Shown here: positions 14,171 to 44,568 of the stretch, piece by piece | Layout of the letters: every line of letters starts with the position of its first letter | Position numbering within the stretch: the first letter of the stretch is position 1 | Assembly: GCA_035710445.1 (NCBI GenBank) | Contig: DASTDH010000409.1 | Coordinates: forward strand, 1-45,022 | Direction of reading: 5' to 3' | Origin: Chthoniobacterales bacterium | GTDB lineage: Bacteria; Verrucomicrobiota; Verrucomicrobiia; Chthoniobacterales; JAFAMB01 | DNA length: 45,022 bases | Position numbers and translations under genes: made by a program | Notes under the pieces: model-generated | What the model was told of the DNA's origin: nothing | Seen by the model: only the letters and a program-made list of their open reading frames with translations | Databases searched by the model: none

Positions 14171-14321
14171 AGGCAGATAAGCACGTCCAACAGTCAAATC
14201 TTTTCAGAATTGCGGAAAGCGGATAGCGGAACGCGGTCGCGTTCGCTAAGCTTTCGGCGCATTCGACAGCTTTGCTCTGCTGTTGATCGTGTGCTTTGGG
14301 CGATGTGGGCGCCAATTCGAT

Positions 14322-16109: not shown

Positions 16110-16149
16110 TGGTTTCTCCGGTACAAGCGGCGACTCTCCAGCTGGGTCC

Positions 16150-22482: not shown

Positions 22483-22526
22483 AAACAATCATTTCTCAAG
22501 ATAGGCGAATCGCATCTATTCGGTTG

Positions 22527-23960: not shown

Positions 23961-23974
23961 GTAATCGGTAATCG
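23958..23974 (+). repeat. heptad stop-triplet array H1: TAA GTAATCG GTAATCG
   Basis: It begins at the MFS stop codon. TAA occurs at 23958, 23962 and 23969, covering all three frames. Confidence 0.6.
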
Positions 23975-24039
23975 GCGGCGACTGTCCAACCGAAGGCCCT
24001 GACTTTGTTGAATTCAGAGATTCGAACCGAACCGACTCG

Positions 24040-24300
24040 TTCGGACCGGCCTCAGAGCGCAGTCGCCTTAGCCTGGTTCGCGCGGATTGTGCGTCAAAGG
24101 GTTATGGCGAGCGCGCTCTAAGGTCGGCCAAATGAGTCGTTTCGAATATTTTGGTCAGCCATAGTTTGCCCGGACAGCGTATCACAGGCGTTGGCGAGCG
24201 ATGGCGACTGCGCCCCTAAGTCACCCCAGACGAATCGCTTCGGTCCATCGTTTTGGTCAGCAACGTCGAGGAAACCTAAACGGACAGTCGCCGCTACCGA
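24040..24300. repeat. repeat family R2, composite copy containing an internal inverted segment
   Basis: cagagcgcagtcgcc (24053-67) matches 16203-17. gagcgatggcgactgcg (24196-24212) is identical to 30443-59 and inverted relative to the first segment. gacgaatcgcttcggtcc (24228-45) matches 16289-16308. Confidence 0.6.
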
Positions 24301-29593: not shown

Positions 29594-30127
29594 ATGGTCT
29601 CCAACCTTCCTGATCAGTATTTTCGCCGTATCGAGTCCATTCATCAGGCGCTGCAGATTCCATCGAACTACGGCGCACTTCGAAACCTTACGCCATACCT
29701 GGAAGCATCCGATCTTGTTCCGGTCGAGGGATACGAACGGCAACATTATCTTGCCCCCTACGCTGCACGCCAATGGCACGCCATGAAGAGCGCTGCAGCT
29801 CAGGACGAGATTGAGCTCTGGGTCATCTCCGGCTTTCGCAGCGTCGATCGTCAAACCGAGATCATTGAAGGCAAGCTCACCCAGCGGATGGCCCTGCATG
29901 CCATTCTTGCGGTAATCGCTGCTCCTGGTTTCAGCCAGCATCACACCGGCCTGGCTATCGACATCGGAACACCAGACCATACGGCCTTGACTGAAGACTT
30001 CGAAAACTCCGCGGCATTCCGCTGGCTCACTTCCTATGCCGAAAAATTCGGGTTCGTGATGCCTTGTACCCGCGATAACCCGTACGGATTTATCTATGAA
30101 CCGTGGCATTGGGTACTCGCGAGATAG
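29594..30127 (+). CDS. M15-family zinc D-Ala-D-Ala carboxypeptidase-like peptidase (VanY/LdcB-type)
   Basis: The motifs SGFRSVDRQ, APGFSQHHTGLAIDI and YEPWHW match the H-x6-D ... H metal and active-site pattern of peptidase M15B. No signal peptide is evident. Confidence 0.8.
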   Translation: MVSNLPDQYFRRIESIHQALQIPSNYGALRNLTPYLEASDLVPVEGYERQHYLAPYAARQWHAMKSAAAQDEIELWVISGFRSVDRQTEIIEGKLTQRMALHAILAVIAAPGFSQHHTGLAIDIGTPDHTALTEDFENSAAFRWLTSYAEKFGFVMPCTRDNPYGFIYEPWHWVLAR

Positions 30128-30148
30128 CCGATAGCCGATAACCAATAG
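30125..30148 (+). repeat. heptad stop-triplet array H2: TAGCCGA TAGCCGA TAACCAA TAG
   Basis: It starts at the M15 peptidase stop codon. Stops occur at 30125, 30132, 30139 and 30146, with an exact 7-nt period. Confidence 0.65.
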
Positions 30149-30269
30149 GCGAACCGGACCACCCTCACTCTCCAGGAACGCGCACTTGAGATTGCCTACA
30201 GAGGCCCGGTCGCAATTTCTGGTAGCGGCGACTAGCCCGTCAGACATAGTCCGGTTTTCTCAGGTTGTC

Positions 30270-30500: not shown

Positions 30501-30567
30501 TGGACTGCGCCAACGCCTGAGGTTGTGTGTTCCTGTCCCCTGCAACCAGCAACGCTGTTTAATTTGC

Positions 30568-30603
30568 TAATCACTAATCACCAATCACCGGGTCACCTCT
30601 CAC
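30568..30603 (-). repeat. heptad stop-triplet array H3 (minus strand: GGTGAGA GGTGACCC GGTGATT GGTGATT AGTGATT)
   Basis: On the plus strand, TCA occurs at 30600, 30593 (the genuine stop of the dehydrogenase gene), 30585, 30578 and 30571. Confidence 0.65.
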
Positions 30604-32026
30604 CCTCCCCCACATCATCCTTCGTAAAGCGTCCGTTGATCTGCCGCCAGATCCCCAGCTTATTCGCGTTGCGCAGTTCTACGGGCAACAAGTTCTCAGC
30701 AAAATTTTGGAAACATACCGGTCGCGTGAACCGGTGGATTGCTGCTGTCCCAACCGAAGTGAAACGAGAATCCGTTGTCGCCGGATAGGGTCCACCATGT
30801 TGCATCGACGGGCAGACCTCGACTCCCGTAGGGTAACCATTAAGAATTACGCGCCCTGCTCTCCCAGCAAACGCTTCCAGAAATGCTCTGCTTGATTCCT
30901 CTTCGTCCGGCGTGAGATGCACCGTTGCAGTCAGTTGTCCCGGCAAAGATTTGATCGTCTTTAACACTTCTTCTTCATCCGTGCATTCCACTAGCAATGT
31001 GGCCGGACCGAAAATCTCTTCCTGTAGCACTTGGTTCTCCCGAAATTCTTTGGCGGTTGCTCTCAATAGATGAGCGGCCCGGCTTACCCGCACATGGGAC
31101 TGCGTCTTTCGGAGTGAGTCGGCCAATCGTTCCTCGATGCCACGGTATAACATTGGCGCTGATTCTACTTTGGCGAGTGCATCCCCAAGTGCGCTGCTCA
31201 ACTCTTCAAAGTCCGCTCCGCGCAGACCTAGAATTAGCCCCGGTTTGGTGCAGAATTGACCAACACCGAGTGTCACTGAACCAGCCAAACCTTTTACGAT
31301 CTCTGCCCGGCGTTCTCGCAATGCTTCCGGCATAATCAACACAGGATTGAGAGAGCTCATTTCAGCAAAAACTGGAATCGGCTCCGGCCGACCGGCTGCG
31401 AGATCGAACAAGGAACGTCCAGCCTGAGTGGACCCTGTAAACCCGACGGCGCGAATCACCGGATGGGTCACCAACTGCTTGCCCGCCTCGATAGAGGTAT
31501 CGGTCACCAGATGAAACATGGCCTTGGGCATTCCAGTGTCTACTATTGCACGCACAATTGCGTCCCCGACCAAAACCGAGGTGCGTGGATGAGCCGGATG
31601 AGGTTTCACTGCGACCGCACAACCCGCGGCAAAAGCCGAAGCCGTATCGCCGCCTGCCACGGAGAAAGCCAACGGGAAATTGCTGGCGCTGAATACCGCA
31701 ACCGGTCCGAGCGGCCGGAGCACCCGCCGAATGTCTGGCTTAGGAATGGGCTTGCGCGCGGGCAGAGCGGTATCGATACGCGCGTCGACCCATGATCCTT
31801 CCTCGATCAAGCCGGCGAACATCGTAAGCTGATTGACCGTGCGCGTTCGCTCTCCCCGCAGGCGATCAACCCCGAGCTTAGATTCCTCATGGCAAACTTG
31901 AATCAATTCGTCGCCAAGCTTCTCGATGTGTTCTCCGACCCGACGAAGAAACGATGCGCGTTCTTTGGCGCCGGGGGCGCGAAAGCCGCCGAGACCATCC
32001 AGATGAGCAGATAAAGAATCACTCAT
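30593..32026 (-). CDS. alpha-ketoglutarate semialdehyde dehydrogenase (aldehyde dehydrogenase family; XylA/AraE-like)
   Basis: ATG at 32026. The motifs GPVAVFSASNFPLAFSVAGGDTASAFAAGCAVAVKPHPAHP, VGFTGS and EMSSLNPV...GQFCTKPG are typical of the KGSADH subgroup. It lies downstream of the pentonate dehydratase and FAH genes. Confidence 0.8.
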   Translation of the reverse strand: MSDSLSAHLDGLGGFRAPGAKERASFLRRVGEHIEKLGDELIQVCHEESKLGVDRLRGERTRTVNQLTMFAGLIEEGSWVDARIDTALPARKPIPKPDIRRVLRPLGPVAVFSASNFPLAFSVAGGDTASAFAAGCAVAVKPHPAHPRTSVLVGDAIVRAIVDTGMPKAMFHLVTDTSIEAGKQLVTHPVIRAVGFTGSTQAGRSLFDLAAGRPEPIPVFAEMSSLNPVLIMPEALRERRAEIVKGLAGSVTLGVGQFCTKPGLILGLRGADFEELSSALGDALAKVESAPMLYRGIEERLADSLRKTQSHVRVSRAAHLLRATAKEFRENQVLQEEIFGPATLLVECTDEEEVLKTIKSLPGQLTATVHLTPDEEESSRAFLEAFAGRAGRVILNGYPTGVEVCPSMQHGGPYPATTDSRFTSVGTAAIHRFTRPVCFQNFAENLLPVELRNANKLGIWRQINGRFTKDDVGEGER

Positions 32027-32081
32027 AGCCAATCCTTGCACAGAAGATCGCAGAGACCACAAAGAACCACTAATAGACACA

Positions 32082-32181
32082 CAGAAATTTAAACCGCGAA
32101 TGAACACTAATAGAAGAACCGGAGTTGAATGCGGTCCCTTTATTCGTGTCTATTCGCGCGCATTCGTGGTCTAAATTTCTG
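32082..32181. repeat. 21-bp inverted repeat (19/21) in the FAH-to-dehydrogenase spacer
   Basis: cagaaatttaaaccgcgaatg (32082-32102) pairs with cattcgtggtctaaatttctg (32161-32181). The 58-nt loop contains tandem 10-mers TATTCGTGTC and TATTCGCGCG (32141-32160), and a third unit, CATTCGTGGT (32161-32170), opens the right arm. Confidence 0.75.
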
Positions 32182-32198: not shown

Positions 32199-33026
32199 TC
32201 AGGCGACTTCGTTTGTCAGTTCACCGATGGGTGCGGCCGCGATCCTGACCAAATCTCCCGATAACAATGTGAAGTCATTCGGTGGAACGATGCCAGTACC
32301 GGTAAATAGAAAAGCACCGACCGGAAAATCGAGTTCGCGAAACAAATATTCGACTAGTTCGCTGAACGGGCGGCGAATGCGCGACAGCGCTACACTGCCT
32401 TGGAAGAGGGGTTTGCCGGAGCGCTCGATTACCAACGTCATTTCAACGTTCAAATCAAGCGGTCGGTCGATTACCAGTATGGCGGGGCCCAGCGCGCAAC
32501 TGCCGTCGTACACTTTCGCTTGCGGCAGATACAACGGATTTTCGCCTTCGATATCGCGAGACGAAACATCGTTGCCCAAGGTGTATCCGATAATTTGACG
32601 ATCAGTATTGATCGCCAACACCAACTCCGGCTCAGGAACGCTCCAACGGGCATCTTTGCGAACACGAATCTTGGCATCAGGTCCAATTGCTCTCCATCCG
32701 GGCGATTTGAAGAAAAGTTCCGGGCGCTCAGCCTCATACACTTTGGAGTAAAATAACGCCGCTCCGCTTTCCTTAGATTCCTCCCGGCGCCCTTCCCGGC
32801 TTCTTTCGTAGGTCACACCGGCTGCCCAGATCTCCTGCGTACCAACTGGAGCCAGAATCTCCTCCGGAGCCGGGGGTTGCGCCGCCGCTCCTCGGCGTGA
32901 AACCTCAAGCAGATGGTCGTAAAGATTGGGCAGGTTTAAGAGCTCATCAAAATCGGTGCCGTGAACAGTGAAGAATTTGCCATCCGAGTTCAGCAGGAAA
33001 CTTTTGGTGGTGCGGTAGAGAAGCAT
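32199..33026 (-). CDS. fumarylacetoacetate-hydrolase-fold 2-keto-3-deoxy-pentonate dehydratase-like protein (XylX/KdaD-like)
   Basis: ATG at 33026, 275 aa. The FAH-family C-terminal domain pattern is present: IWAAGVTYE...YTLGNDVS.RD.EGENPLYLPQAK...G. The operon context places it between an IlvD/Edd dehydratase and KGSADH. Confidence 0.7.
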   Translation of the reverse strand: MLLYRTTKSFLLNSDGKFFTVHGTDFDELLNLPNLYDHLLEVSRRGAAAQPPAPEEILAPVGTQEIWAAGVTYERSREGRREESKESGAALFYSKVYEAERPELFFKSPGWRAIGPDAKIRVRKDARWSVPEPELVLAINTDRQIIGYTLGNDVSSRDIEGENPLYLPQAKVYDGSCALGPAILVIDRPLDLNVEMTLVIERSGKPLFQGSVALSRIRRPFSELVEYLFRELDFPVGAFLFTGTGIVPPNDFTLLSGDLVRIAAAPIGELTNEVA

Positions 33027-33027
33027 A

Positions 33028-33056
33028 GTAAGGCAGTAATCGGTAATCAGTAATGG
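33028..33056 (+). repeat. heptad array H4 (plus-strand GTAA units: GTAAGGCA GTAATCG GTAATCA GTAATGG)
   Basis: GTAA occurs at 33028, 33036, 33043 and 33050. The array ends 2 nt from the FAH start codon and is inverted relative to H5. There is a 13-bp perfect complement, 33034-46 with 33185-97. Confidence 0.65.
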
Positions 33057-33168
33057 CTCAATAATCGATGGTATTCGGCGAGCATTTTCGTACCGATGAG
33101 AACTCTGGGATCGACTGAGACACCCGGTCAAACAATTAGAAGCAGCTTCCTCGAGCTGCGGCACCATT

Positions 33169-33215
33169 CTCTACCGATTACCGTTTACCGATTACTGATT
33201 ACTGATTAGTGGCTA
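33169..33215 (-). repeat. heptad stop-triplet array H5 (minus strand: TAG CCA CTAATCA GTAATCA GTAATCG GTAAACG GTAATCG GTAGAG)
   Basis: On the plus strand, CTA/TTA units start at 33171, 33178, 33185, 33192, 33199, 33206 and 33213. This is a strict 7-nt period, and the last unit is the genuine stop of the dehydratase gene. Confidence 0.75.
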
Positions 33216-34943
33216 GTGCGACGGCCTCGGCACCGCATGGCCACGCGAGCCAATCAGAAAATCAAAATCGGCACCGAGATTAGCTTGCATCACGCGTTCG
33301 CAGTACAAGCGCTGATAGCCGCCCGAAGGCAGCTCCGGTGGAACCCATGCGCTTCGTCGCCGTTGCAATTCGGCCTCGTCTACCTGCAAATGAAGAATCC
33401 GTTTCTCAACGTCCACCTCGATGATATCGCCATCCTGCACGAAAGCGAGCGATCCTCCTACTGCCGCTTCCGGTGCGCAATGCAAGATTACGGTGCCATA
33501 AGCGGTCCCGCTCATGCGCGCATCGGATATTCGGATCATGTCAGTGATTCCGCGTTTGAGTAGCGCCGGTGGAAGTCCCATGTTGCCGACCTCGGCCATC
33601 CCGGGATAACCGCGCGGCCCGCAATTCTTCAAAACCAGAATCGAATTTTCGTCGGCCTCCAAATCAGGATCATTGATCCGCTCATGGTAATGTTCAATGT
33701 TTTCGAAGACGATTGCTCTGCCGGTATGCTTCAGCAGATGCGGGCTGGCGGCTGACGGTTTAACCACTGCCCCGTCCGGAGCCAGATTCCCTCGTAGTAC
33801 CGCAACGCCACCGGAACGAACCAGCGGCTTGGATAACGGCCGAATCACTTCCGAATCGTAACATTCCGCATTCCGAATATTCTCCCAAACGGTATTGCCG
33901 CTTACGGTCTTAATCGAAGTGTGCAAAAGCCCAGCCTCCGCCAGTCTGCGCATCACCACGGGAAGACCTCCCGCGTAATAAAAATCCTCCATCAGAAAAC
34001 GTCCGGAAGGCATCAAATCCACAATGGTCGGAACCTCACGGCCAAGTTTGTCCCAGTCATCCAGAGTTACTTTAACCCCAAGTCTGCCGGCAATCGCAAG
34101 GAGATGAATGACGCCGTTAGTCGATCCTCCCACTGCGCCATTGACCCGAATCGCGTTTTCGAATGCCTCACGGATGAGAACCTTAGAGAGTCGCTGATCT
34201 TCCTGCACCATCTCGACGATGCGGCGGCCCGCCATCTGTGCCAGGACACCCCGCCTGGAATCAACCGCAGGAATCGCTGCATTGTGAGGCAGCGCCACTC
34301 CGAGCGCCTCGACCATAGACGCCATGGTGGATGCCGTCCCCATAGTCATACAATGACCCGCACTCCGGGACATGCAGGCTTCCGCCTCCGAAAATTCGCA
34401 CATCGTCATCTGGCCGGCACGAACCGCCTCGGAGAACTGCCAAACGCTGGTTCCGGACCCGATCGTTTGCCCCTTGAATCGACCGTTTAGCATCGGTCCG
34501 CCCGACACCACGATGCTCGGCAGATCGCAGCTGGCCGCTCCCATCAGCAATGCGGGCGTGGTCTTGTCGCAGCCGGTAAGTAGAACCACCCCATCGATCG
34601 GATTCCCGCGAATCGACTCCTCTACGTCCATGCTCACCAAGTTCCGAAACAGCATCGCCGTAGGTCGCAGGTTCGATTCACCCAGCGACATCACCGGAAA
34701 TTCAAACGCCACGCCGCCCGCTTGCAGGACCCCTTGCTTCACCTTGTCGGCCAGCCCGCGAAAATGTGCATTGCAGGGCGTAAGCTCCGAATAGGTATTA
34801 CAAATGCCGATAACCGGTCGCCCGTCGAAAACATCGTCCGGCAATCCCTGGTTCCGCATCCAGCTCCGATGAATGAAAACATCGCGACTGGTCCCTCCGA
34901 ACCAAGCCTGGGACCGAAGCGATCCGTTTGATTGCTCTATCAT
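33213..34943 (-). CDS. IlvD/Edd-family sugar-acid dehydratase (pentonate dehydratase, XylD / L-arabonate dehydratase-like)
   Basis: About 576 aa. The sequence reads LRSQAWFGG...NQGLP...GRPVIGICNT.SELTPCN.H...CDKTTPALLMGA...CMTMGTASTM. The track ORF starts at GTG 34952; ATG 34943 is the likelier start. Confidence 0.88.
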   Translation of the reverse strand: MIEQSNGSLRSQAWFGGTSRDVFIHRSWMRNQGLPDDVFDGRPVIGICNTYSELTPCNAHFRGLADKVKQGVLQAGGVAFEFPVMSLGESNLRPTAMLFRNLVSMDVEESIRGNPIDGVVLLTGCDKTTPALLMGAASCDLPSIVVSGGPMLNGRFKGQTIGSGTSVWQFSEAVRAGQMTMCEFSEAEACMSRSAGHCMTMGTASTMASMVEALGVALPHNAAIPAVDSRRGVLAQMAGRRIVEMVQEDQRLSKVLIREAFENAIRVNGAVGGSTNGVIHLLAIAGRLGVKVTLDDWDKLGREVPTIVDLMPSGRFLMEDFYYAGGLPVVMRRLAEAGLLHTSIKTVSGNTVWENIRNAECYDSEVIRPLSKPLVRSGGVAVLRGNLAPDGAVVKPSAASPHLLKHTGRAIVFENIEHYHERINDPDLEADENSILVLKNCGPRGYPGMAEVGNMGLPPALLKRGITDMIRISDARMSGTAYGTVILHCAPEAAVGGSLAFVQDGDIIEVDVEKRILHLQVDEAELQRRRSAWVPPELPSGGYQRLYCERVMQANLGADFDFLIGSRGHAVPRPSH

Positions 34944-35024: not shown

Positions 35025-35084
35025 TCACTCATCAAGAAGCACCAATCACCAGTCACCGTTTACTGCTTACCTCTCACCGCTCAC
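35025..35084 (-). repeat. heptad stop-triplet array H6 (minus strand: TGA GCGGTGAGA GGTAAGC AGTAAAC GGTGACT GGTGATT GGTGCTT CTTGATG AGTGACT)
   Basis: On the plus strand, TCAC/TTAC occurs at 35046, 35053, 35060, 35067, 35074 and 35081, an exact 7-nt period. Position 35081 is the genuine permease stop. Degenerate units continue in register to 35025. Confidence 0.75.
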
Positions 35085-36034
35085 TGTTCCGCACGCTCCC
35101 GTCCGTAAGCCAACAGCATAGCGATGATCACAACGCCGTAAATGATTTGCCGACCAGCCTCCGGCATCTGCACCACCGATAATATCGATTGTAGAAGGGT
35201 AATCAAAATTACGCCGGCGACCGTACCGAGAAACGTGCCGCGCCCACCAAGAATCCTGGTCCCGCCCAAGACAACAGCCGCAATCGCTGGAAGAAGATAA
35301 GGATCTCCCATCGCCTGGTAAGCATGAGTAGAGTAGCCGGCCAGGAGGACGCCGGAAAGCGCGGAGCAGGATCCGGATATGGCAAAGCAAACTAGAACTA
35401 TGCGGCGCGTGTCGACCCCGGACAGATAAACTGCCGATTCACGGTTACCGATCGCATAAACTCGCCGACCAAAGACGGTTCGGGTCAACAATATAATAAC
35501 GATGAGGGCGACCGTCCCCCACACCCAAAGCGCATTGGGAACCCCGAAGAAAGATCGCCCAACGGCGATCATATGCATGGTCGCGGTAGCGCGATCTTGC
35601 GGAGCGTAACCACTTGTATGAACGATCATCAATCCCTGGGCCAAGACGTTGGTACCAAGCGTGAAGATCATCGACGGCACACGGAGATACGCAACCCCTA
35701 CGCCGTTTACCAGACCGACGCAGAGACCGCACGCGATGCCGATTGGGATGGCCAGTGTCGTTCCTATTTGGCCCCAACCGCCTGCGGTGGTTGACATCAT
35801 GCCACCGATCGTCACAACCCATGGGATCGAGAGATCAATTTGGCCAAGTAAAATGATCAGCATAAGGCCGGAGGCGATGATACCGAGAAACGAAGCCACC
35901 TGCAGTTGCTGCAAGAGATACTCTGGGGAAAGAAAATTGGACGAATAGAATGAACCCACCACCAGTAGAGCAATAATACAGCCGAAGACGGCCAGCACGA
36001 TTGGATCAATACGTTTCAATATCCGGGCCTGCAT
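35081..36034 (-). CDS. sugar ABC transporter permease (RbsC/XylH-type, CUT2)
   Basis: 317 aa and polytopic. It carries the family pattern LLGQIDLSI.WV......VGLVNG..VAYLRVPS.I.TLGT. The gene starts 6 nt after the preceding gene's stop. Confidence 0.85.
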   Translation of the reverse strand: MQARILKRIDPIVLAVFGCIIALLVVGSFYSSNFLSPEYLLQQLQVASFLGIIASGLMLIILLGQIDLSIPWVVTIGGMMSTTAGGWGQIGTTLAIPIGIACGLCVGLVNGVGVAYLRVPSMIFTLGTNVLAQGLMIVHTSGYAPQDRATATMHMIAVGRSFFGVPNALWVWGTVALIVIILLTRTVFGRRVYAIGNRESAVYLSGVDTRRIVLVCFAISGSCSALSGVLLAGYSTHAYQAMGDPYLLPAIAAVVLGGTRILGGRGTFLGTVAGVILITLLQSILSVVQMPEAGRQIIYGVVIIAMLLAYGRERAEQ

Positions 36035-36040
36035 TGCCTG

Positions 36041-38815
36041 TTAGCCTCCGAGGTAAATATCAAGCCTATTCTTGACCCGAAGCAGTCGGAAGGAACTGAG
36101 ACTAACTGCCGCCAGCAGAACGACACCGAGGTACAGCGGTTGCCAAAGGGGATCGAGGTCGAAGGTGATGAGCAGATCGCCGATGGTTCTTAGTACGAAA
36201 GCGCCAAAGATCGAGCCGATGGCTCCGCCTGAGCCGCCGAAAAGAGACGTTCCCCCGAGCACGACCGCAGCGATCGAATTCAGAGTATAGGTGCTGCCAA
36301 GAACGGTGTTCGCTTCGCCGGAATAGGTAATGCAGGTCAAAAGTAGCCCGGCCATCGAGGCCAGGACACCCGCCATGAGATAAGCGAAAAACTTCGCTCG
36401 TCCAATTGGAATACCCGACATAAAGGCGGCCTGTTCCGAAGAACCTACGGCGTACGCTGCACGACCCAGGACGGAATGCTTGTAAGGGAGCCAAAAGAGG
36501 AAGACCACACCCAGCAGGAGAAGCAGAGTTACCGGAATGCCACCGGGCAATGATCCAACTACGGCGTCAGCAAAATCGGTGTTGATCGTGCCGCCCGGAG
36601 CAGGCCTCAACCAAAGGGCAAAACCAAAATAGATCGCTCCGGTAGCAATCGTCGCGATGATTGGCTGCAACCGGCCAAACACGACGATTGCGCCATTGAT
36701 CGCGCCACAGACGGTTCCAACCAGAAGGACCCCGAACACTCCAAACGCCGTTTCGAGGGGTGAGCCGGCTACGAGGGTTGAGGCGAGGCAGTTTGCCAGT
36801 ACAAACACCATACCAACGGAAAGGTCGAGGCCTGCGGTAAGGATCGGGATAGTTTGCGCCATCGCTACGAGAGCGAGGAGCACTCCTTTGTTGGCTGCCG
36901 TATTGAGAATTCTCGCGCTAAAACCGCCCGGATGTTTGGCTACGTATAGTGTGAACATCACGAGGAAGAGCGCTACCGCGAAAAGAATTCGGCGTTGAGC
37001 CGCAACCTGAAAACGCCAGTCGGGTTTACGTTTCCCTGGCTTGGAAGGGATCGCAGCCTGCTCGATATAGCCGGACTGAAGACTTGTGGGCTGTCCTCCT
37101 GCACTCGGCTGCGTCAGATCCCCGCGATCCGCCGTACCCGCAATCCGTGGCTGACGAGGATCCGGCGCCGCTGATGGGATGGACTCCAAGGTTGGTGAAT
37201 CGACAGATATGTCGGACGGGCGCGGTCGTTCCCTAGGTTCTACCGACCGCATCTCGATTAACGCCGTCGATGTTTTGCTCTGCGCCTCCGTCACCGGCAG
37301 ATTGAGAGCACTTGCGACCAGATTGCGTTCGGTGATCGCCTCCCCTTCGAGAGTTCGCACTAAACCGCCTCCATAAAGAACCAGGACCCGGTCACAACAG
37401 CCGATCAGCTCGTCATAGTCGGTGGAATAAAATAAGATGGCGGCTCCTTCGTCTGCCAGCCGCCGAAGGCTCTGATAGAGCTCCTGCTTGGTACCGACAT
37501 CGACACCGCGGGTGGGATCATTTAAGAGGATGATTCGCGGCTCGGTCATCAGCCATTTGCCAATGACTACCTTCTGTTGATTGCCGCCGGACAGAGCACC
37601 GACCGGACCTTCAATACCGTCACAGCGAATATTCAGGCGCAGGATGATCTCGTTGATTGCTTTCTCTTCGGTACCGCGCTGGATCAGTCCGAAACGACAA
37701 AATCGTTCGATTGCAGCAAAAGAAAGGTTATCACGAACCGACATCGGTAGCATCAATCCCTCCGTCTTCCTGTCCTCTGGGATGAGCGCCATGCCGACTT
37801 CCTTTCTCTTGGCCACGGCGGGACTTCTTAACGTAACCGCTCTGCCGCCAACTTCGACCGTACCAGAAACACCATTTAAAACGCCGAATAAAGCCAGCAG
37901 CAATTCGTGTTGGCCCTGTCCGTCGAGTCCTCCCAGCCCGATCACTTCGCCTCGCTTGATCGACACATCGATCCCTCGCAGGCGCCCCGCCCAAGAGAGA
38001 TTCTTAACGTTGAGCATCGTCGCGCTGTCTGTCGCTCGCGCGGGTTTGGGCGGAAAAACGCTCTTGTACTCGCGTCCGATCATCATTTCCACGATCGCAT
38101 CATCGCTTTTGGTCCCAGCCCCAAACGTCGCGACATAGCTGCCGTTGCGATAAACTGTGCAGTCGTCGGCGAGCTCCGCTATCTCATGCATGCGATGCGA
38201 GATATAGACGATAGCGAGGCCTTCTGACCGAAGTTGTTTCAAGACGCGGAAAACCCTAGCCACATCGGCGGCGGTCAATGCTGATGTAGCCTCGTCCAGA
38301 ATCAGAATCTTCGGCTTGCGAGCGAGCGCTTTCGCGATCTCGACCATCTGCCGGCGCGAAAGCGGAAGATCTTTGACCAACGAAAGCGGATGAATATCCT
38401 GCGCCCCAGCTCGGGCCAGTGCTTCCTCCGCCAAGCGACGCTGAGACCGGCGATCGATTAGTCCGAGACGGACGGGCGGGCTGGTGATCGCGATATTGTC
38501 GGCCACGGATAAATCGGCGATCAGCGACAGCTCTTGGAAGATACAGGCAATGCCTGCTGCCGTCGCGGCGGCCGGTTTGTGGAAGGTGACCGGCTGGCTT
38601 TCCAGTTTCATGACACCGGAATCGGGTTGGACAACGCCAGCCATCACCTTGATTAAAGTTGATTTTCCCGCGCCGTTCTCGCCGAGAACCGCGTGAATGC
38701 GACCACGGAAACAGTCGAGGCGTGCGTCCTGGAGCGCACGGACGCCACCGTAACGCTTCGAAATCCCATCCATGCTGAAGAGTGCAGTTGCACTCGTATT
38801 TGAAACAAGTTCCAC
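36041..38815 (-). CDS. sugar ABC transporter, fused tandem-NBD ATPase + permease (RbsA/XylG-like fused to RbsC/XylH-like)
   Basis: A single 924-aa ORF. The N-terminal half has two Walker A / signature / Walker B sets (GENGAGKST...LSRRQ...ILILDEATSAL, then ...LSGGNQQKV...IILLNDPTRGVD). A P/S/R-rich linker of about 90 aa follows, then a permease domain of about 325 aa (ILTAGLDLSVG...). The start is GTG 38815, with an alternative ATG at 38773. Confidence 0.85.
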   Translation of the reverse strand: MELVSNTSATALFSMDGISKRYGGVRALQDARLDCFRGRIHAVLGENGAGKSTLIKVMAGVVQPDSGVMKLESQPVTFHKPAAATAAGIACIFQELSLIADLSVADNIAITSPPVRLGLIDRRSQRRLAEEALARAGAQDIHPLSLVKDLPLSRRQMVEIAKALARKPKILILDEATSALTAADVARVFRVLKQLRSEGLAIVYISHRMHEIAELADDCTVYRNGSYVATFGAGTKSDDAIVEMMIGREYKSVFPPKPARATDSATMLNVKNLSWAGRLRGIDVSIKRGEVIGLGGLDGQGQHELLLALFGVLNGVSGTVEVGGRAVTLRSPAVAKRKEVGMALIPEDRKTEGLMLPMSVRDNLSFAAIERFCRFGLIQRGTEEKAINEIILRLNIRCDGIEGPVGALSGGNQQKVVIGKWLMTEPRIILLNDPTRGVDVGTKQELYQSLRRLADEGAAILFYSTDYDELIGCCDRVLVLYGGGLVRTLEGEAITERNLVASALNLPVTEAQSKTSTALIEMRSVEPRERPRPSDISVDSPTLESIPSAAPDPRQPRIAGTADRGDLTQPSAGGQPTSLQSGYIEQAAIPSKPGKRKPDWRFQVAAQRRILFAVALFLVMFTLYVAKHPGGFSARILNTAANKGVLLALVAMAQTIPILTAGLDLSVGMVFVLANCLASTLVAGSPLETAFGVFGVLLVGTVCGAINGAIVVFGRLQPIIATIATGAIYFGFALWLRPAPGGTINTDFADAVVGSLPGGIPVTLLLLLGVVFLFWLPYKHSVLGRAAYAVGSSEQAAFMSGIPIGRAKFFAYLMAGVLASMAGLLLTCITYSGEANTVLGSTYTLNSIAAVVLGGTSLFGGSGGAIGSIFGAFVLRTIGDLLITFDLDPLWQPLYLGVVLLAAVSLSSFRLLRVKNRLDIYLGG

Positions 38816-39048: not shown

Positions 39049-40209
39049 TCACTGATTGGCCTCAGTCTTGCCCATTATCTCCTCCGCGGTGAAGCCGATG
39101 TTGCAGGCCGGAAAGGAGTTTCCGACGAAGAAGTTGTCTTGGAGGTTGGGATAATAGTCTTGACCTTCTTTCATGTTTGGCCATTCGACATACGAAACCG
39201 GCAAACTGATCGATTGCGGAACTGAGTTGCCTTGAAGTGCTGAGATGGCTGCCTTAAGGGTTACCGCAACCTGAGCCGGGCCGGTACCGCTCGAAGAGCC
39301 ATGCAAACCTTGGTCAGCGTACTTCGCGCACAACTTGCGATACCCGTTTTCCGTTTCGCCGGATACCGGAATCATTGGATGATGCGCATCAATCAGTGCT
39401 TGAACCGTGCCGGTGGAGCCGCCCTGGGTGTATACGCCCGCGAACTGCTTATGCACCGCAATCGCATCGGCGGTGACCTTCTGAGCCGTCCCATCATCCC
39501 ATTTGCCGACCACCTCGATCACTTCGAATTTTTTGCCCGACTTATCAAGCACCTCATGGAAACCGTTATGCCGGTCACGGTCGACCGAATTGCCCGATGG
39601 TCCACGTACCTCAAGAATCTTGCCACTGTCCGCCTTGATTTCCTTCAAGAGCCAACGAGCAGCTAAACGACCGAGTTCGGTTTGGTCAACATTGACGGTA
39701 ATTGCATCTGGTGACTCGATGACGTTATCAAACGACAGAAGCACGACGCCTGCCGCATTGGCTCTTTTAACCACAGGCGCGAAAGCAGCAGGATTGAGCG
39801 CGTTGACAATCACTGCATCGTAGCCGGAGTCGATGAAGTTATTGGCTGCGGCAATCTGGGCAGCAAGATCTTCACCGGTCGAGACTACCTTGAATTCCTT
39901 TAGTTGGCTCTTTACGTCTGCCTTTTCGGCGTAGGCCTTGGCCGTTTTGATCATCTGGATACGCCAGGTATTTCCGATGAAGCCGTTGACTAACGCGATC
40001 CGGTAGGGTCCATCCTTTTTCGGCCATTTGAAATACTTTGTGTCCGAACTCCATGGTTTCATGCAGTCGGCATCGGCACCAGGTCCGGAGACGGTTTGCG
40101 GGCCCGCCGCAATTGCCGTCCCGGAGACGCCGTACAACAGCGACAGACCACCAATCAGGATCAGTATCCGGCCGCTGAGAAACGTATTTTTCGTCAGATT
40201 TTTTTTCAC
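39049..40209 (-). CDS. sugar ABC transporter periplasmic substrate-binding protein (Peripla_BP_4, ribose/xylose/arabinose type)
   Basis: The N-terminus is signal-like (MKKNLTKNTFLSGRILILIGGLSLLYGVSGTAIAAG). The sequence then reads YRIALVNGFIGNTWR...GYDAVIVNALNP...VVLLSFDN. It has a GTG start and is the first gene of the minus-strand operon. Confidence 0.85.
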   Translation of the reverse strand: MKKNLTKNTFLSGRILILIGGLSLLYGVSGTAIAAGPQTVSGPGADADCMKPWSSDTKYFKWPKKDGPYRIALVNGFIGNTWRIQMIKTAKAYAEKADVKSQLKEFKVVSTGEDLAAQIAAANNFIDSGYDAVIVNALNPAAFAPVVKRANAAGVVLLSFDNVIESPDAITVNVDQTELGRLAARWLLKEIKADSGKILEVRGPSGNSVDRDRHNGFHEVLDKSGKKFEVIEVVGKWDDGTAQKVTADAIAVHKQFAGVYTQGGSTGTVQALIDAHHPMIPVSGETENGYRKLCAKYADQGLHGSSSGTGPAQVAVTLKAAISALQGNSVPQSISLPVSYVEWPNMKEGQDYYPNLQDNFFVGNSFPACNIGFTAEEIMGKTEANQ

Positions 40210-43869: not shown

Positions 43870-44535
43870 CTATTGGCGGCCGAGCCATCCGTCCTTGAGC
43901 CGAATGATCCTTTGGTCGTAACCGGCGTTCGTTTCCGAATGTGTCACCTGGACGATAGTGGTGCCGAGCGCATTGAGCTTACAAAACAATTCCATGATTT
44001 CTTTCGCCTGATCGGAATGCAGATTGCCGGTCGGCTCGTCCGCCAAAAAGAGTTCAGGTTTCGCTACCGTCGCTCGCACCACGGCGACAAGTTGCTGTTG
44101 GCCACCGGAGAGTTGAGCAGGAAAGAGATCGCGTTTTCCGACGATGTTGAATCTATCTAACGCATCACAGACAATTGCTTCTCGTTCCTTTTTCGGAACG
44201 TCAGGATAGGCCAGGGGCAGCTCGATGTCTTCATACACCGTGAGATCGTCGAGCAGATGATAGGACTGAAACACAAATCCAGTATGTTTCTTCTGCAATG
44301 CCAGACGTTCTTTGGGCCGTAACTTATGTACCGCATGACCCAGCAAATGATATTCCCCTTCCCAATTTGCATCATGTAATCCGAGAATATGCAAGAGAGT
44401 CGATTTACCGGCTCCGGAGGGACCCATGATCGAAACGAATTCGCCCTCCGCTATCGTAAAGGTGATCTGCTGGAGGACGTAGTAAAGACCGCCTTTCAGT
44501 TTGTAACACTTTTCAATGTTTTTGAGTGTGATCAT
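43870..44535 (-). CDS. ABC transporter ATP-binding protein (LolD/MacB-NBD/FtsE-like)
   Basis: It has Walker [11 protein letters not shown]-loop, signature LSGGQQQ, Walker [12 protein letters not shown] and H-loop VTH. Length is 221 aa. No cognate FtsX-type permease is present in the window. Confidence 0.88.
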
Positions 44536-44547
44536 GGAGGAATTGCT

Positions 44548-44568
44548 GGTTACAGGTAACGGGTTACA
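44548..44568 (+). repeat. heptad repeat H7: GGTTACA GGTAACG GGTTACA
   Basis: Three units with a 7-nt period lie 13 nt upstream of the minus-strand ABC ATPase start. It is weaker than H1-H6 and is not anchored on an annotated stop. Confidence 0.45.

What the first reader, a model, noticed from the sequence alone, without database searches (positions are those of the whole stretch)
33028..33215. Two inverted heptad arrays bracket the dehydratase-to-FAH spacer and abut the FAH start codon
Immediately after the dehydratase stop (TAG at 33215-33213, minus strand) come six further in-phase units: CTAATCA GTAATCA GTAATCG GTAAACG GTAATCG GTAGAG. That gives seven stop triplets at an exact 7-nt spacing (plus-strand starts 33171 to 33213).

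About 110 nt further on in the mRNA, the complementary array (plus-strand GTAA at 33028, 33036, 33043 and 33050) ends 2 nt before the FAH gene ATG (33026). The two arrays contain a perfect 13-bp complement (33034-33046 with 33185-33197), plus further register-shifted pairing options.

The region where a Shine-Dalgarno sequence would sit is ...GAUUACUGCCUUACU-AUG. It has no SD and could be sequestered in a long stem. This suggests structure-dependent coupling or attenuation of FAH-gene translation inside the operon.
Basis: partly seen in the sequence, partly recalled or inferred. Interest (0 to 1): 0.65.

Follow-up and report, generated by a model that had tools for sequence, protein, structure and literature searches.

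The report
Inverted heptamer-repeat arrays between operon genes
The gap between two pentose-breakdown genes of a soil Verrucomicrobium is filled by two mirror-image runs of a 7-base repeat around a 116-base core; this belongs to a widespread, already described but functionally unsolved class of bacterial intergenic heptamer repeats, and is not a locus-specific translation switch.

Summary
Six GTAATCR-type units follow the dehydratase stop. Three to four complementary YGATTAC units end 1 nt before the FAH start, and the two arrays can form a long imperfect stem (z = -2.8 against shuffles).

- The arrays belong to a dispersed heptamer family. It occurs at about six more gene junctions in this window, is strongly enriched in related Chthoniobacterales contigs, and is found in at least 12 phyla.
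- This kind is already described: GGGAATC arrays and inverted pairs in Xanthomonas, and TAACTGA arrays before SD-less start codons in Beggiatoaceae, Cyanobacteria and Bacteroidetes.
- Lacking an SD is normal in this genome (12 of 17 genes).
- In silico, the distal array barely changes start-site accessibility.
- The spacer is not conserved. The closest FAH relatives carry unrelated spacers or almost none.
- Copy number changes in 7-nt steps between strains.

New here: one relative carries the same core inverted between the arrays, so the arrays act as recombining inverted repeats.

Best reading: a slippage-prone palindromic insert in an ancestrally tight stop/start junction. Its self-pairing loops it out and keeps the two genes coupled. 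Whether it has a dedicated regulatory function is unproven.

The parts
33213..34943 (-). IlvD/EDD-family pentonate (L-arabinonate-type) dehydratase gene; stop TAG at 33215-33213
   Evidence: Pfam PF00920 + PF24877. NCBIfam PRK06131 922 bits and L-arabinonate dehydratase 856 bits. The exact 576-aa product is on record in ENA contig k133_1280028.
33171..33212 (-). Distal (mRNA 5') heptamer array, starting 3 nt after the stop: CTAATCA GTAATCA GTAATCG GTAAACG GTAATCG GTAGAG. It carries UAA/UAG every 7 nt, so there are stops in all three frames.
   Evidence: Copy number varies between strains: +1 unit in L001, +14 nt in run X1, -20 nt in X8, and fewer units in L202. Contig depth here is about 2 to 100 times that of the flanks in soil metagenomes, so the array is multi-copy.
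33055..33170 (-). 116-nt single-copy core between the arrays. It is non-coding and is found in both orientations among relatives.
   Evidence: No other copy in about 1.4 Mb of fetched loci, and depth equals the flanks. It is 93.6% identical in L202, where FAH third codon positions are 68.8% identical. It is reverse-complemented in L205 (83.4% over 175 nt) and, more diverged, in L006. The 47-codon in-frame extension is not coding: about 7 nt changes give 5 aa changes, and L001 loses the frame by -7 nt.
33132..33159 (-). Weak terminator-like hairpin inside the core: GCAGCTCGAGGAAGCTGC followed by TTCTAATTGT. It lies in the sense orientation of the operon in this window.
   Evidence: 1 site found against 0.5 expected, so not significant on its own. 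It is conserved in L001 and L202 (sense) and in L205, where it lies on the antisense strand.
33027..33054 (-). Proximal (mRNA 3') heptamer array: CAUUACU GAUUACC GAUUACU GCCUUACU. It ends 1 nt before the FAH AUG. The unit UUACYGA is a 1-nt variant of TAACTGA in 'forward' orientation.
   Evidence: Alleles: -7 nt in L001 and +7 nt (CAGCAAT at 33033) in run X7.
32199..33026 (-). FAH-family gene (2-keto-3-deoxy-pentonate dehydratase, KdaD/AraD1-like); start ATG at 33026-33024
   Evidence: Pfam PF01557. Homologues are named 2-dehydro-3-deoxy-D-arabinonate dehydratase and nearly all are 275-277 aa.
35036..35077 (-). Another array of the family, 3 nt after the permease stop: GTGAGAG GTAAGCA GTAAACG GTGACTG GTGATTG GTGCTTC
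30567..30588 (-). Another array, a few nt after the aldehyde dehydrogenase stop: GGTGATT GGTGATT AGTGATT
30123..30152 (+). GATAGCC-type heptamer array (4.3 copies). Longer arrays sit at the matching place in L002 and L010.
23961..23975 (+). GTAATCG x2 directly after the TAA of ORF 22524-23960. It forms the outer edge of a MITE-like element.
44540..44567 (-). GTAACCC GTTACCT GTAACCA GCAATTC, ending 4 nt before the ATG of ABC ATPase gene 43870-44535
14209..14260 (+). GCGGAAA GCGGATA GCGGAAC array followed at once by a partly complementary stretch (a small palindrome)

Best explanation
What it is (confidence about 0.9). The feature is an inverted pair of heptameric simple-sequence-repeat arrays. 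Its arrangement is 5'-(R/C)TAATCR x6 ... 116-nt core ... YGATTAC x3-4-3'. It fills the intercistronic spacer of a Weimberg-type pentose operon in a Chthoniobacterales-like soil bacterium. The operon order is sugar-binding protein, ABC ATPase-permease, permease, pentonate dehydratase, KdaD/FAH, aldehyde dehydrogenase. The pair is one member of a dispersed family of intergenic heptamer arrays that this lineage shares with many phyla.

How it behaves (shown):
- The arrays gain and lose 7-nt units between strains, as expected from replication slippage.
- They act as recombining inverted repeats: the core between them is flipped in at least one relative.
- The whole spacer is an exchangeable, non-conserved filling of a junction that in other relatives is only 1-3 nt long.

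How it most likely works in the mRNA (inferred; about 0.4-0.5):
- The element is palindromic, so the transcript zips the two arrays into a stem of about 25-35 bp. This loops out the insert and puts the dehydratase UAG and the SD-less FAH AUG at the foot of one helix.
- A ribosome terminating at UAG opens the foot of the stem. FAH translation therefore stays coupled to dehydratase translation despite 186 inserted nucleotides.
- On this reading the element is a tolerated, self-folding, hypervariable insert. Array length may modulate FAH and aldehyde dehydrogenase output incidentally. It is not a dedicated attenuator.
For: Arrays and their complementarity.

Family membership:
- Nine GTAATCRGTAATC-like sites in the window against 1.3 expected.
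- Lag-7 periodicity specific to period 7.
- 10 arrays per 59 kb and 9 per 58 kb in close and mid relatives, against 4 per 330 kb in distant ones.
- Array depth about 2-100x that of the flanks in 7 soil metagenomes that cover it, with contigs diverging on both sides of the array.
- At least 120 genome loci with (GATTACY)3, in Cyanobacteriota, Bacteroidota, Chloroflexota, Acidobacteriota, Planctomycetota, Verrucomicrobiota, Chlamydiota, Elusimicrobiota, Methylomirabilota and others.

Slippage:
- Alleles at this locus: L001, X1, X5, X7, X8, L202.
- L208-L211 encode an identical FAH protein but carry roughly 3 to 6 GTGAGAR units, differing between contigs.

Inverted pairs as a rule:
- 34 inverted-only against 15 direct-only array pairs. 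Arms are complementary although the units differ between loci (GTTCCAA, TAAGGGA, GTGAATC, TTGTTCG, AGAGATT); a GGCGTTC-type pair was found by eye in L020.
- GTAATC-type pairs are arranged 5'-GTAATCN...NGATTAC-3' in about 22 loci and the other way round in 1.
- The same stop-array-loop-array-start bracket occurs in L117, L177, L190, L010 and L006.

Inversion: L205 positions 15-187 match window spacer positions 180-11 at 83.4% on the opposite strand, while the outer flanks stay colinear.

Ancestrally tight junction:
- TAAGATG in L015 and L018.
- Contigs in X2, X3 and X7 replace 248 nt by 63 nt.

Stem geometry and partial opening by a terminating ribosome: (0.43 to 0.51 in the window, 0.31 to 0.58 in L001, 0.40 to 0.77 in L205).

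Literature:
- Xanthomonas GGGAATC arrays lie on the sense strand within 50 bp after stops, or on the antisense strand before starts. They form 70-75 inverted pairs, vary in length between species and are mostly transcribed (PMC4692102).
- TAACTGA arrays end a few nt before SD-less start codons (PMC4679880).
Against: - There is no transcript or structure-probing data; no RNA run could be listed.
- The distal array does not measurably lower start-site accessibility in the window: 0.43 native against 0.41 with the distal half shuffled. L202 shows no change at all.
- Sense RNA is not more stable than antisense across 11 elements. Pairing may therefore matter, or simply arise, at the DNA level.
- Many inverted pairs lie between convergent genes, where coupling is irrelevant (stop/stop in 8 of 33 pairs).
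- The core is 93.6% conserved between the window and L202 although flanking synonymous sites are about 69% identical. That could mean the core has a function this explanation ignores, or that it was exchanged recently.
- The strong 5'-GTAATCN...NGATTAC-3' polarity is not explained by hairpin formation alone.
Confidence: 0.45

Rival explanations
1. Dedicated riboregulator. The distal array exists to sequester the SD-less FAH start in a long stem, so FAH translation is attenuated unless the stem is opened. Array copy number sets the strength.
For: - A stable long stem is predicted, z = -2.78.
- The proximal array abuts the AUG.
- The same bracket occurs at other co-directional junctions.
- The forced-open footprint raises accessibility in L001 and L205.
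Against: - Shuffling the distal half leaves window accessibility unchanged, 0.41 against 0.43.
- Absence of an SD is the genome norm.
- The element is absent from the closest FAH relatives and replaced by unrelated spacers.
- The same arrays occur between convergent genes.
- There is no sense-strand bias in stability.
Confidence: 0.15
2. Protein-binding platform. Each heptamer binds one copy of a single-strand RNA-binding protein (cold-shock-domain or S1-like). The YGAUUAC array before the AUG would be an SD-independent ribosome standby or regulatory site. The complementary array after the stop would compete with the protein by pairing.
For: - Forward GATTACY arrays end within 20 nt of an ATG that opens an ORF of at least 100 aa in 19 of 113 cases, against 8 of 109 for the reverse reading.
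- The unit is a 1-nt variant of TAACTGA, for which this model was proposed. CspB binds one protein per heptamer (PMC4679880).
- Relatives carry pyrimidine-rich ATTCTNN heptamers before the same AUG.
- The phyla with these arrays include the SD-poor Bacteroidota and Cyanobacteriota.
- The fixed polarity of the pairs fits a strand-specific reader.
Against: - No binding protein has been identified.
- Units differ widely between loci, which is hard to reconcile with one sequence-specific binder.
- The orientation bias is only 2- to 3-fold.
Confidence: 0.12
3. Invertible switch. The arrays are the inverted repeats of a flip-flop segment whose core carries a one-way terminator-like hairpin. In the window orientation it would dampen read-through into FAH and the aldehyde dehydrogenase gene. 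In the L205 orientation it would not.
For: - The core is present in both orientations among relatives, with colinear flanks.
- The hairpin plus T-rich tail is conserved, lying on the sense strand in the window, L001 and L202 and on the antisense strand in L205.
- The core is unusually conserved against L202.
Against: - A single inversion event is enough to explain the data.
- No strand-change joints appear in the contigs of 8 soil runs.
- No inversion is seen at other array pairs.
- The hairpin is weak (6 bp, 4 GC) and its count is not above shuffles.
- No promoter-like site is present.
- No invertase was looked for or found.
Confidence: 0.08
4. REP/BIME-like 3'-end element. The long hairpin protects the upstream transporter-dehydratase mRNA segment from 3' exonucleases, or acts as a processing or partial termination point, and so sets the stoichiometry between upstream and downstream genes.
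For: - Arrays reading GTAATCR follow stop codons within 20 nt in 21 of 113 cases against 7 of 109.
- Many pairs lie between convergent genes or right after stops.
- Xanthomonas arrays lie on average 28 nt from the upstream ORF (PMC4692102).
Against: - No U-tract follows the 3' arm.
- No transcript data are available.
- The element abuts a start codon as closely as a stop codon.
Confidence: 0.08
5. Miniature inverted-repeat transposable element (MITE) whose terminal inverted repeats happen to be heptamer arrays, inserted between the two genes.
For: - The element has an inverted-repeat architecture.
- A true multi-copy MITE-like family (TIR GGTAGCGGCGACTGTCC, with heptamers at its edge) fills the same junction in L212/213 and L225-228, and occurs at window 23961-24299.
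- L002 equals L004 minus an insert of about 217 nt.
Against: - The core has no second copy in 1.4 Mb of loci and has single-copy depth in metagenomes.
- The distance between arms at other loci ranges from 13 to 374 nt with unrelated cores.
- No target-site duplication is evident.
Confidence: 0.07

Closest known systems
Intergenic heptameric SSRs of Xanthomonas (GGGAATC) and Nostoc (GGGGAYT), Rehm et al. 2015, PLoS One (PMC4692102)
   Same: - Tandem 7-nt units in intergenic regions, dispersed over the genome.
- Preferentially between co-directional ORFs.
- The same strand rule: the GGGAATC/GGTAATC reading lies on the sense strand just after, or overlapping, a stop codon, and its complement lies just before a start.
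- Frequent inverted pairs able to form stem-loops (70-75 per genome).
- Copy number varies between close relatives while the single or paired type is kept.
- GGTAATC differs from GGGAATC by one base.
   Different: - There are no G-runs, so the G-quadruplex property that defined that study is absent.
- The host phylum is different (Verrucomicrobiota).
- Here the segment between the arms is shown inverted in a relative, and the whole spacer is mosaic among relatives. Neither was reported there.
TAACTGA direct repeats of Beggiatoaceae, Cyanobacteria and Bacteroidetes, MacGregor 2015, Front Microbiol (PMC4679880)
   Same: - Heptamer arrays in 'forward' orientation ending a few nt before start codons that lack an SD.
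- Stops in all three frames.
- 7-nt indels between strains.
- Patchy cross-phylum distribution.
- The proximal unit UUACUGA is a listed single-base variant. True TAACTGA-like units abut an ATG in L010 and form the 3' arm in L194.
   Different: - That work found essentially direct repeats only, with one inverted case. Here the inverted partner array is the rule.
- The unit is TTACYGA, not TAACTGA.
- Function is untested in both cases.
Cyanobacterial STRR heptanucleotide repeats (Calothrix PCC 7601; cited in PMC4692102; otherwise from my own knowledge of Mazel et al. 1990)
   Same: Short tandemly repeated heptamers in intergenic DNA, as several unit families per genome. Function is unknown.
   Different: The units are different (CCCCAGT and others). 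They were described only for heterocystous cyanobacteria. No stop/start bracket or inverted pairing was described, as far as I recall; this was not checked here.
REP/BIME and REPIN elements of Proteobacteria (own knowledge; REPIN paper PMC3116915 surfaced but was not read)
   Same: Multi-copy intergenic palindromes, often in inverted pairs, lying after stop codons and inside operons. They form mRNA hairpins.
   Different: REPs are fixed 20-40-nt imperfect palindromes mobilised by RAYT transposases. They are not tandem 7-nt arrays with variable unit number.
Invertons: invertible promoter segments flanked by inverted repeats (own knowledge; not searched or read here)
   Same: Short inverted repeats flank a segment of about 100-700 bp that is found in both orientations.
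   Different: Both orientations are seen only between diverged lineages. No promoter and no invertase were found, and within-population flipping is not shown.
Translational coupling through long-range mRNA pairing (MS2 coat-replicase, rpmI-rplT; own knowledge)
   Same: The downstream start lies in a helix whose other strand lies at the end of the upstream cistron. A terminating or translating ribosome opens it.
   Different: Here the helix is made of generic repeat units. It is not conserved among orthologous junctions, and its effect on accessibility is marginal in silico.

Membership tests
Intergenic heptameric SSR arrays (Mrazek 2007 class; Rehm 2015) | Head-to-tail tandem copies of a 7-nt unit, at least 2 units | tested here: met
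   TRF period 7: 5.3 copies at 33172-33208 and 3.0 copies at 33034-33054
Intergenic heptameric SSR arrays (Mrazek 2007 class; Rehm 2015) | Dispersed, multi-copy, intergenic | tested here: met
   Array depth is about 2-100x that of the flanks in soil contigs.
Intergenic heptameric SSR arrays (Mrazek 2007 class; Rehm 2015) | Unit-number polymorphism between close relatives | tested here: met
   L001, L202, X1, X7 and X8 alleles differ by 7, 14 or 20 nt. L208-L211 also differ.
Intergenic heptameric SSR arrays (Mrazek 2007 class; Rehm 2015) | Strand rule: purine-rich reading on the sense strand after a stop, complement before a start; inverted pairs common | tested here: met
   Window. 21/113 against 7/109, and 19/113 against 8/109. 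34 inverted against 15 direct pairs.
G-quadruplex-forming heptamer repeats (Rehm 2015 subclass) | Four or more G3-4 tracts able to form a G4 | tested here: not met
   Units GTAATCR / YGATTAC contain no G-run
TAACTGA repeats (MacGregor 2015) | Unit TAACTGA | tested here: not met
   The unit is TTACTGA/TTACCGA, one mismatch. True TAACTGA-like units occur in L010 and L194.
TAACTGA repeats (MacGregor 2015) | Forward orientation ending within a few nt of a start codon without an SD | tested here: met
   The proximal array ends 1 nt before the AUG and there is no SD motif
MITE | Terminal inverted repeats | tested here: met
   Arms of 20 nt at 90% and 31 nt at 81%
MITE | Multiple copies of the same internal sequence; target-site duplication | tested here: not met
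   The core has no other copy in 1.4 Mb of loci and has single-copy depth. No flanking direct duplication was seen.
Inverton (invertible segment) | Segment flanked by inverted repeats and found in both orientations | tested here: met
   The L205 and L006 cores are reverse-complemented relative to the window, L001 and L202, with colinear flanks
Inverton (invertible segment) | Both orientations coexist within one population; dedicated invertase; promoter inside | tested here: inconclusive
   No strand-change joints in the contigs of 8 runs, but contigs drop rare variants. No promoter-like site. An invertase was not searched for. Raw reads were not available.
Intrinsic terminator | GC-rich hairpin followed by a U-tract | tested here: inconclusive
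   The array stem has no U-tract. The core hairpin is 6 bp with 4 GC plus TTCTAATTGT; 1 site found against 0.5 expected.
Known RNA families (Rfam 15) | Covariance-model match | tested here: not met
   No hit at gathering score in the whole window, and none at E<=1 in 32900-33350
Translational coupling by start-site sequestration | Start region paired in the native mRNA and freed when the upstream partner is removed or covered | tested here: inconclusive
   Unpaired probability (native / ribosome at stop / distal half shuffled): 0.43 / 0.51 / 0.41 in the window. The native-to-ribosome shift is larger in L001 (0.31 to 0.58) and L205 (0.40 to 0.77), and absent in L202.

The most novel reading that the evidence does not exclude
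The heptamer arrays are the working inverted repeats of a small invertible cassette inside an operon. Recombination between them flips a conserved 116-nt core that carries a one-way terminator-like hairpin, switching expression of the downstream FAH and aldehyde dehydrogenase genes. More broadly, the near-universal 5'-GTAATCN...NGATTAC-3' polarity across at least 12 phyla would reflect a dedicated heptamer-reading factor (a recombinase or an RNA-binding protein). That would make these arrays a cross-phylum regulatory system rather than slippage debris.
Probability: 0.1. Interest if true: 0.8.

Novelty: new member of a known kind. Interest (0 to 1): 0.4.

Why it matters
Heptamer tandem repeats are over-represented in many bacterial genomes. 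They have been described several times (Calothrix, Xanthomonas, Nostoc, Beggiatoaceae, Bacteroidetes), yet nobody knows what they do.

This locus adds four things:
1. The family extends to soil Verrucomicrobiota, and by pattern scan to at least a dozen phyla.
2. It shows a strict polarity rule for inverted pairs.
3. It gives a clear natural series at one operon junction: no spacer, several unrelated spacers, the same spacer with different unit numbers, and the same spacer with its core inverted.
4. It shows that such arrays can recombine.

That series is ready-made material for testing whether the arrays affect translation coupling, transcript ends or phase variation. For genome annotation, the practical lesson is that such arrays next to start codons should not be read as locus-specific riboregulators, nor as N-terminal extensions. 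One public gene call, P0024, translated the spacer as a 47-aa extension.

Tried and rejected
1. N-terminal extension or upstream ORF. The ORF is open from ATG 33167 (322 aa), and a 322-aa homologue, P0024, exists. Rejected because about 7 nt differences give 5 amino-acid changes, L001 loses the frame by a 7-nt deletion, and nearly all other listed homologues start at MLLYR/MHLYR.

2. Known RNA family or riboswitch. No Rfam hit.

3. Multi-copy MITE. The core is single-copy.

4. Sigma-70 promoter in the spacer, which could give FAH its own transcript. None on either strand in the window, L205 or L006.

5. Transcript evidence. No RNA run could be listed.

6. Selection on the sense RNA. Sense and antisense fold energies of 11 co-directional elements show no bias.

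7. Inversions at other array pairs. L020, L019 and L011 are colinear. The reverse hits in L016, L012 and L068 only reflect the palindromic arrays.

8. Within-sample inversion. No strand-change joints in the contigs of 8 soil runs.

9. Base-by-base covariation of the stem. Not meaningful, because the arms are repeats with several possible pairing registers. Replaced by copy-number and unit-level comparison.

10. Complementarity of the unit AGTAATCG to a conserved 16S rRNA segment. This was recalled from memory only. An 8-mer match is near chance level given the rotations and variants allowed, and it was not pursued.
Full report
**1. The observation**

On the minus strand the dehydratase gene ends with TAG (33215-33213). 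It is followed by CCA and then CTAATCA GTAATCA GTAATCG GTAAACG GTAATCG GTAGAG. This gives seven stop triplets exactly 7 nt apart.

Tandem Repeats Finder reports 33172-33208 (period 7, 5.3 copies, 90% matches) and 33034-33054 (period 7, 3.0 copies).

The proximal array reads CAUUACU GAUUACC GAUUACU GCCUUACU on the mRNA.

The arms are complementary over 20 nt at 90% (33034-33053 / 33185-33204). In other registers they match over 31-32 nt at 78-81%.

The pattern is not chance:
- GTAATCRGTAATC-like sites occur 9 times against 1.3 expected.
- Period-7 self-similarity is the only enriched lag.
- The spacer RNA folds at -61.9 kcal/mol against -51.1 +/- 3.9 for shuffles (z = -2.78).

**2. Context**

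The genes on the minus strand are:
- a periplasmic sugar-binding protein (39049-40209);
- a fused ABC ATPase-permease (36041-38815);
- a permease (35081-36034);
- an IlvD/EDD pentonate dehydratase (33213-34943);
- a FAH-family protein annotated in public sources as 2-dehydro-3-deoxy-D-arabinonate dehydratase (32199-33026);
- an aldehyde dehydrogenase closest to 2,5-dioxovalerate dehydrogenases (30593-32107).

Together these form a Weimberg-type oxidative pentose operon.

The nearest named homologues are from Chthoniobacterales MAGs. The same locus is on ENA soil-metagenome contig k133_1280028 (L001).

Nearly all of the 120 listed FAH homologues are 275-277 aa, so the ATG at 33026 is the start.

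**3. It is one copy of a repeat family**

Further heptamer arrays sit at other gene junctions of the window:
- 35036-35077, right after the permease stop;
- 30567-30588, after the aldehyde dehydrogenase stop;
- 30123-30152;
- 23961-23975, directly after a TAA;
- 44540-44567, ending 4 nt before an ATG;
- 14209-14260.

In contigs of relatives, period-7 arrays occur at 10 per 59 kb (84-89% FAH identity) and 9 per 58 kb (about 70%). In distant relatives the figure is 4 per 330 kb. No other period is enriched to a similar degree; the lag-14 signal is the same arrays.

In soil-metagenome contigs, depth over 33172-33208 is about 2-100 times that of the flanks. Many contigs match only the array and diverge on both sides. 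The core has the same depth as the flanks.

The hits come from Cyanobacteriota, Bacteroidota, Chloroflexota, Acidobacteriota, Planctomycetota, Verrucomicrobiota (including two Chthoniobacterales MAGs), Chlamydiota, Elusimicrobiota, Methylomirabilota, Nitrospirota and a few Proteobacteria.

**4. Inverted pairs are a recurring architecture with a fixed polarity**

In 1.34 Mb of fetched loci there were 34 inverted-only and 15 direct-only pairs of heptamer arrays lying 10-400 nt apart.

The arms are complementary within a locus although the unit differs between loci. The units include GTAATCN, GTTCCAA, TAAGGGA, GTGAATC, TTGTTCG and AGAGATT, and GGCGTTC in L020. This is covariation at the level of the unit.

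GTAATC-type pairs are arranged 5'-GTAATCN...NGATTAC-3' in about 22 loci and the opposite way in one, L114.

The precise stop-array-loop-array-start bracket of the window recurs in:
- L117 (Chthoniobacterales);
- L177 (Verrucomicrobiia);
- L190 (Methylomirabilota);
- L010 (an FtsX-like permease followed by an ABC ATPase);
- L006, L007 and L009.

Many other pairs lie between convergent genes.

Across the pattern-scan loci:
- arrays reading GATTACY end within 20 nt of an ATG-ORF in 19 of 113 cases, against 8 of 109 for the opposite reading;
- arrays reading GTAATCR start within 20 nt after a stop in 21 of 113 cases, against 7 of 109.

**5. The orthologous spacer in relatives**

*Copy number.*
- L001 is the same species (FAH 99.4% nt identity). 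It has one more distal unit and one fewer proximal unit.
- Run X1 has +14 nt in the distal array.
- X7 has +7 nt in the proximal array.
- X8 has -20 nt in the distal array.
- L202 has fewer distal units.
- Four contigs encoding an identical FAH (L208-L211) carry roughly 3 to 6 GTGAGAR units, differing between contigs.

*Mosaicism.*
- L206 is the closest FAH relative (94.0% nt) but has an unrelated 381-nt spacer.
- L008 is 96.6% identical to L006 in FAH but has a different spacer.
- L214 is 91.2% identical to L205 but has another upstream gene and a 39-nt spacer.
- L202 is only 83.5% identical in FAH, with third codon positions at 68.8%. It nevertheless shares the window's core at 93.6%.

*Ancestral state.* L015 and L018 have TAAGATG, a 1-nt spacer. 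Contigs in X2, X3 and X7 replace 248 nt (the spacer plus 60 nt of FAH) by 63 nt.

*Other fillings.* Relatives carry other palindromic elements and other heptamers at this junction. After the stop these are GAACGCC, GTGAGAR and GTGATTG; before the ATG they are ATTCTNN.

Several relatives carry a MITE-like element with the TIR GGTAGCGGCGACTGTCC. It has a homologous copy (70-79%) elsewhere in the window, at 23961-24299.

**6. The core is inverted in a relative**

L205 (FAH 85.3% nt identity) has the same outer flanks, TAGGCCACTAACC...GCCTTGCTATG, and the same array arrangement. Its interior, however, is the reverse complement of the window's. L205 spacer positions 15-187 match window spacer positions 180-11 at 83.4% over 175 nt.

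L006, L007 and L009 carry a more diverged homologue of the core in the same inverted orientation (60% over 183 nt, with conserved blocks).

The simplest account is in-situ inversion by recombination between the arrays. One event is enough to explain the data.

No strand-change joints appear in the contigs of eight soil runs, but such contigs drop rare variants. Other array pairs compared between relatives are colinear.

The core contains a weak terminator-like hairpin, GCAGCTCGAGGAAGCTGC followed by TTCTAATTGT. It is in the operon sense in the window, L001 and L202, and antisense in L205. There is no promoter-like site and no Rfam match.

The in-frame 47-codon extension called in P0024 is not coding.

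**7.

The minimum-free-energy fold pairs the arrays and extends into both coding ends. The UAG and the AUG therefore lie at the foot of one long helix.

The mean unpaired probability of positions -18..+12 around the AUG was computed under three conditions:

| Locus | Native | 28 nt around the stop held open (terminating ribosome) | Distal half of spacer shuffled |
|---|---|---|---|
| Window | 0.43 | 0.51 | 0.41 |
| L001 | 0.31 | 0.58 | 0.39 |
| L205 | 0.40 | 0.77 | 0.51 |
| L202 | 0.51 | 0.51 | 0.51 |

Sequestration by the distal array is therefore marginal and inconsistent.

Only 5 of 17 called genes of the same genome have an SD-like motif, so the missing SD is unremarkable. Sense and antisense RNAs of 11 co-directional elements fold equally well. 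No RNA-seq run could be listed.

**8. What is known**

*Rehm et al. 2015 (PMC4692102)* described about 185 GGGAATC heptamer arrays per Xanthomonas genome.
- They lie preferentially between co-directional ORFs.
- The G-rich reading is on the sense strand within 50 bp after, or overlapping, the stop, or on the antisense strand within 50 bp before an ORF.
- There are 70-75 inverted pairs that could form stem-loops.
- Length varies between species while the single or paired type is preserved.
- Most arrays are transcribed.

That paper cites the general over-representation of heptamer SSRs (Mrazek 2007) and the polymerase-slippage idea.

*MacGregor 2015 (PMC4679880)* described 169 sets of TAACTGA arrays in a Beggiatoaceae genome.
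- Most are 'forward' and end a few nt before SD-less start codons.
- They give stops in all frames and show 7-nt indels between strains.
- They are spread across Cyanobacteria and Bacteroidetes.

The window's units differ from each of these by one base: GGTAATC against GGGAATC, and TTACTGA against TAACTGA. They obey the same strand rule. The feature is therefore a new member, in a new phylum and without G-tracts, of a known kind whose function is still open.

**9. Verdict**

*Shown:*
- the arrays, their complementarity and their family membership;
- 7-nt length polymorphism;
- the polarity rule;
- non-conservation and mosaicism of the spacer;
- one inversion of the core.

*Inferred:*
- The transcript folds so that the insert is looped out.
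- FAH translation stays coupled to termination at the dehydratase stop.

*Not supported:*
- A dedicated, locus-specific attenuator.

*Open:*
- why the pairs have a fixed polarity;
- why the core is so well conserved between the window and L202;
- whether inversion is ongoing.

Noticed in passing
window 23961-24299: A MITE-like element of about 335 bp lies directly after the TAA of ORF 22524-23960. Its left end is (GTAATCG)2 GCGGCGACTGTCC and its right end is GGACAGTCGCCGCTACCG, with a 13-nt perfect inverted repeat 294 nt apart. It is 70-79% homologous, in the opposite orientation, to the elements that fill the dehydratase-FAH spacer in L212/213 and L225-228. Weaker copies of the motif lie at 16127-16139 and 30225-30237.
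   Followed up: partly
window 35036-35077, 30567-30588, 30123-30152, 44540-44567, 14209-14260: Further heptamer arrays with other units (GTGAGAG/GTAAACG, GGTGATT, GATAGCC, GTAACCN, GCGGAAA) lie at other gene junctions. Most are within a few nt of a stop or start codon.
   Followed up: partly
L206, L008 and L214 compared with window, L006 and L205 (dehydratase-FAH junction): Spacer type is decoupled from the phylogeny of the flanking genes. FAH genes 91-97% identical carry unrelated spacers, while FAH genes 83.5% identical share a 93.6% identical core. This suggests cassette-like exchange of spacers by recombination, or strong constraint on the core.
   Followed up: partly
L208-L211 (spacers of 252-273 nt): Four contigs from different samples encode the same FAH protein (P0007) but differ in the number of GTGAGAR units (roughly 3 to 6) after the dehydratase stop. 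One also has an extra GAACGCC unit.
   Followed up: no
L202 1307-1566 (FAH to aldehyde dehydrogenase spacer): This spacer holds a near-perfect inverted repeat of about 37 nt: GGAATTATCCGCAGATTACACGGATTACGCAGATTTT ... AAAATCTGCGTAATCTGTATAATCTGCGGATAATTCC. It is built from 8-9-nt periodic GATTAC-containing units. The window's 91-nt spacer at that place is unrelated.
   Followed up: no
L001 gene starts (same genome as window about 23-43 kb): Only 5 of 17 called genes have a GGAG, GAGG or AGGA motif at -20..-3. This lineage appears to be poor in SD sequences.
   Followed up: partly
window 36041-38815 (-): The sugar ABC transporter ATPase (two ABC_tran domains, AraG/RbsA-like) is fused to a BPD_transp_2 permease domain in one 924-aa ORF. 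A separate permease gene follows it.
   Followed up: no
P0024 (public gene call on L202): A public annotation translated the non-coding spacer core and proximal array as a 47-aa N-terminal extension of the FAH protein (322 aa). The window has the same open frame from ATG 33167.
   Followed up: yes
L004 compared with L002 (dehydratase-FAH spacer): The L002 spacer (94 nt) equals the L004 spacer (311 nt) minus an internal segment of about 217 nt bounded by TGAAGCGC-like direct repeats. The segment is itself a nested palindrome, so this is an insertion/deletion polymorphism of another small element.
   Followed up: no
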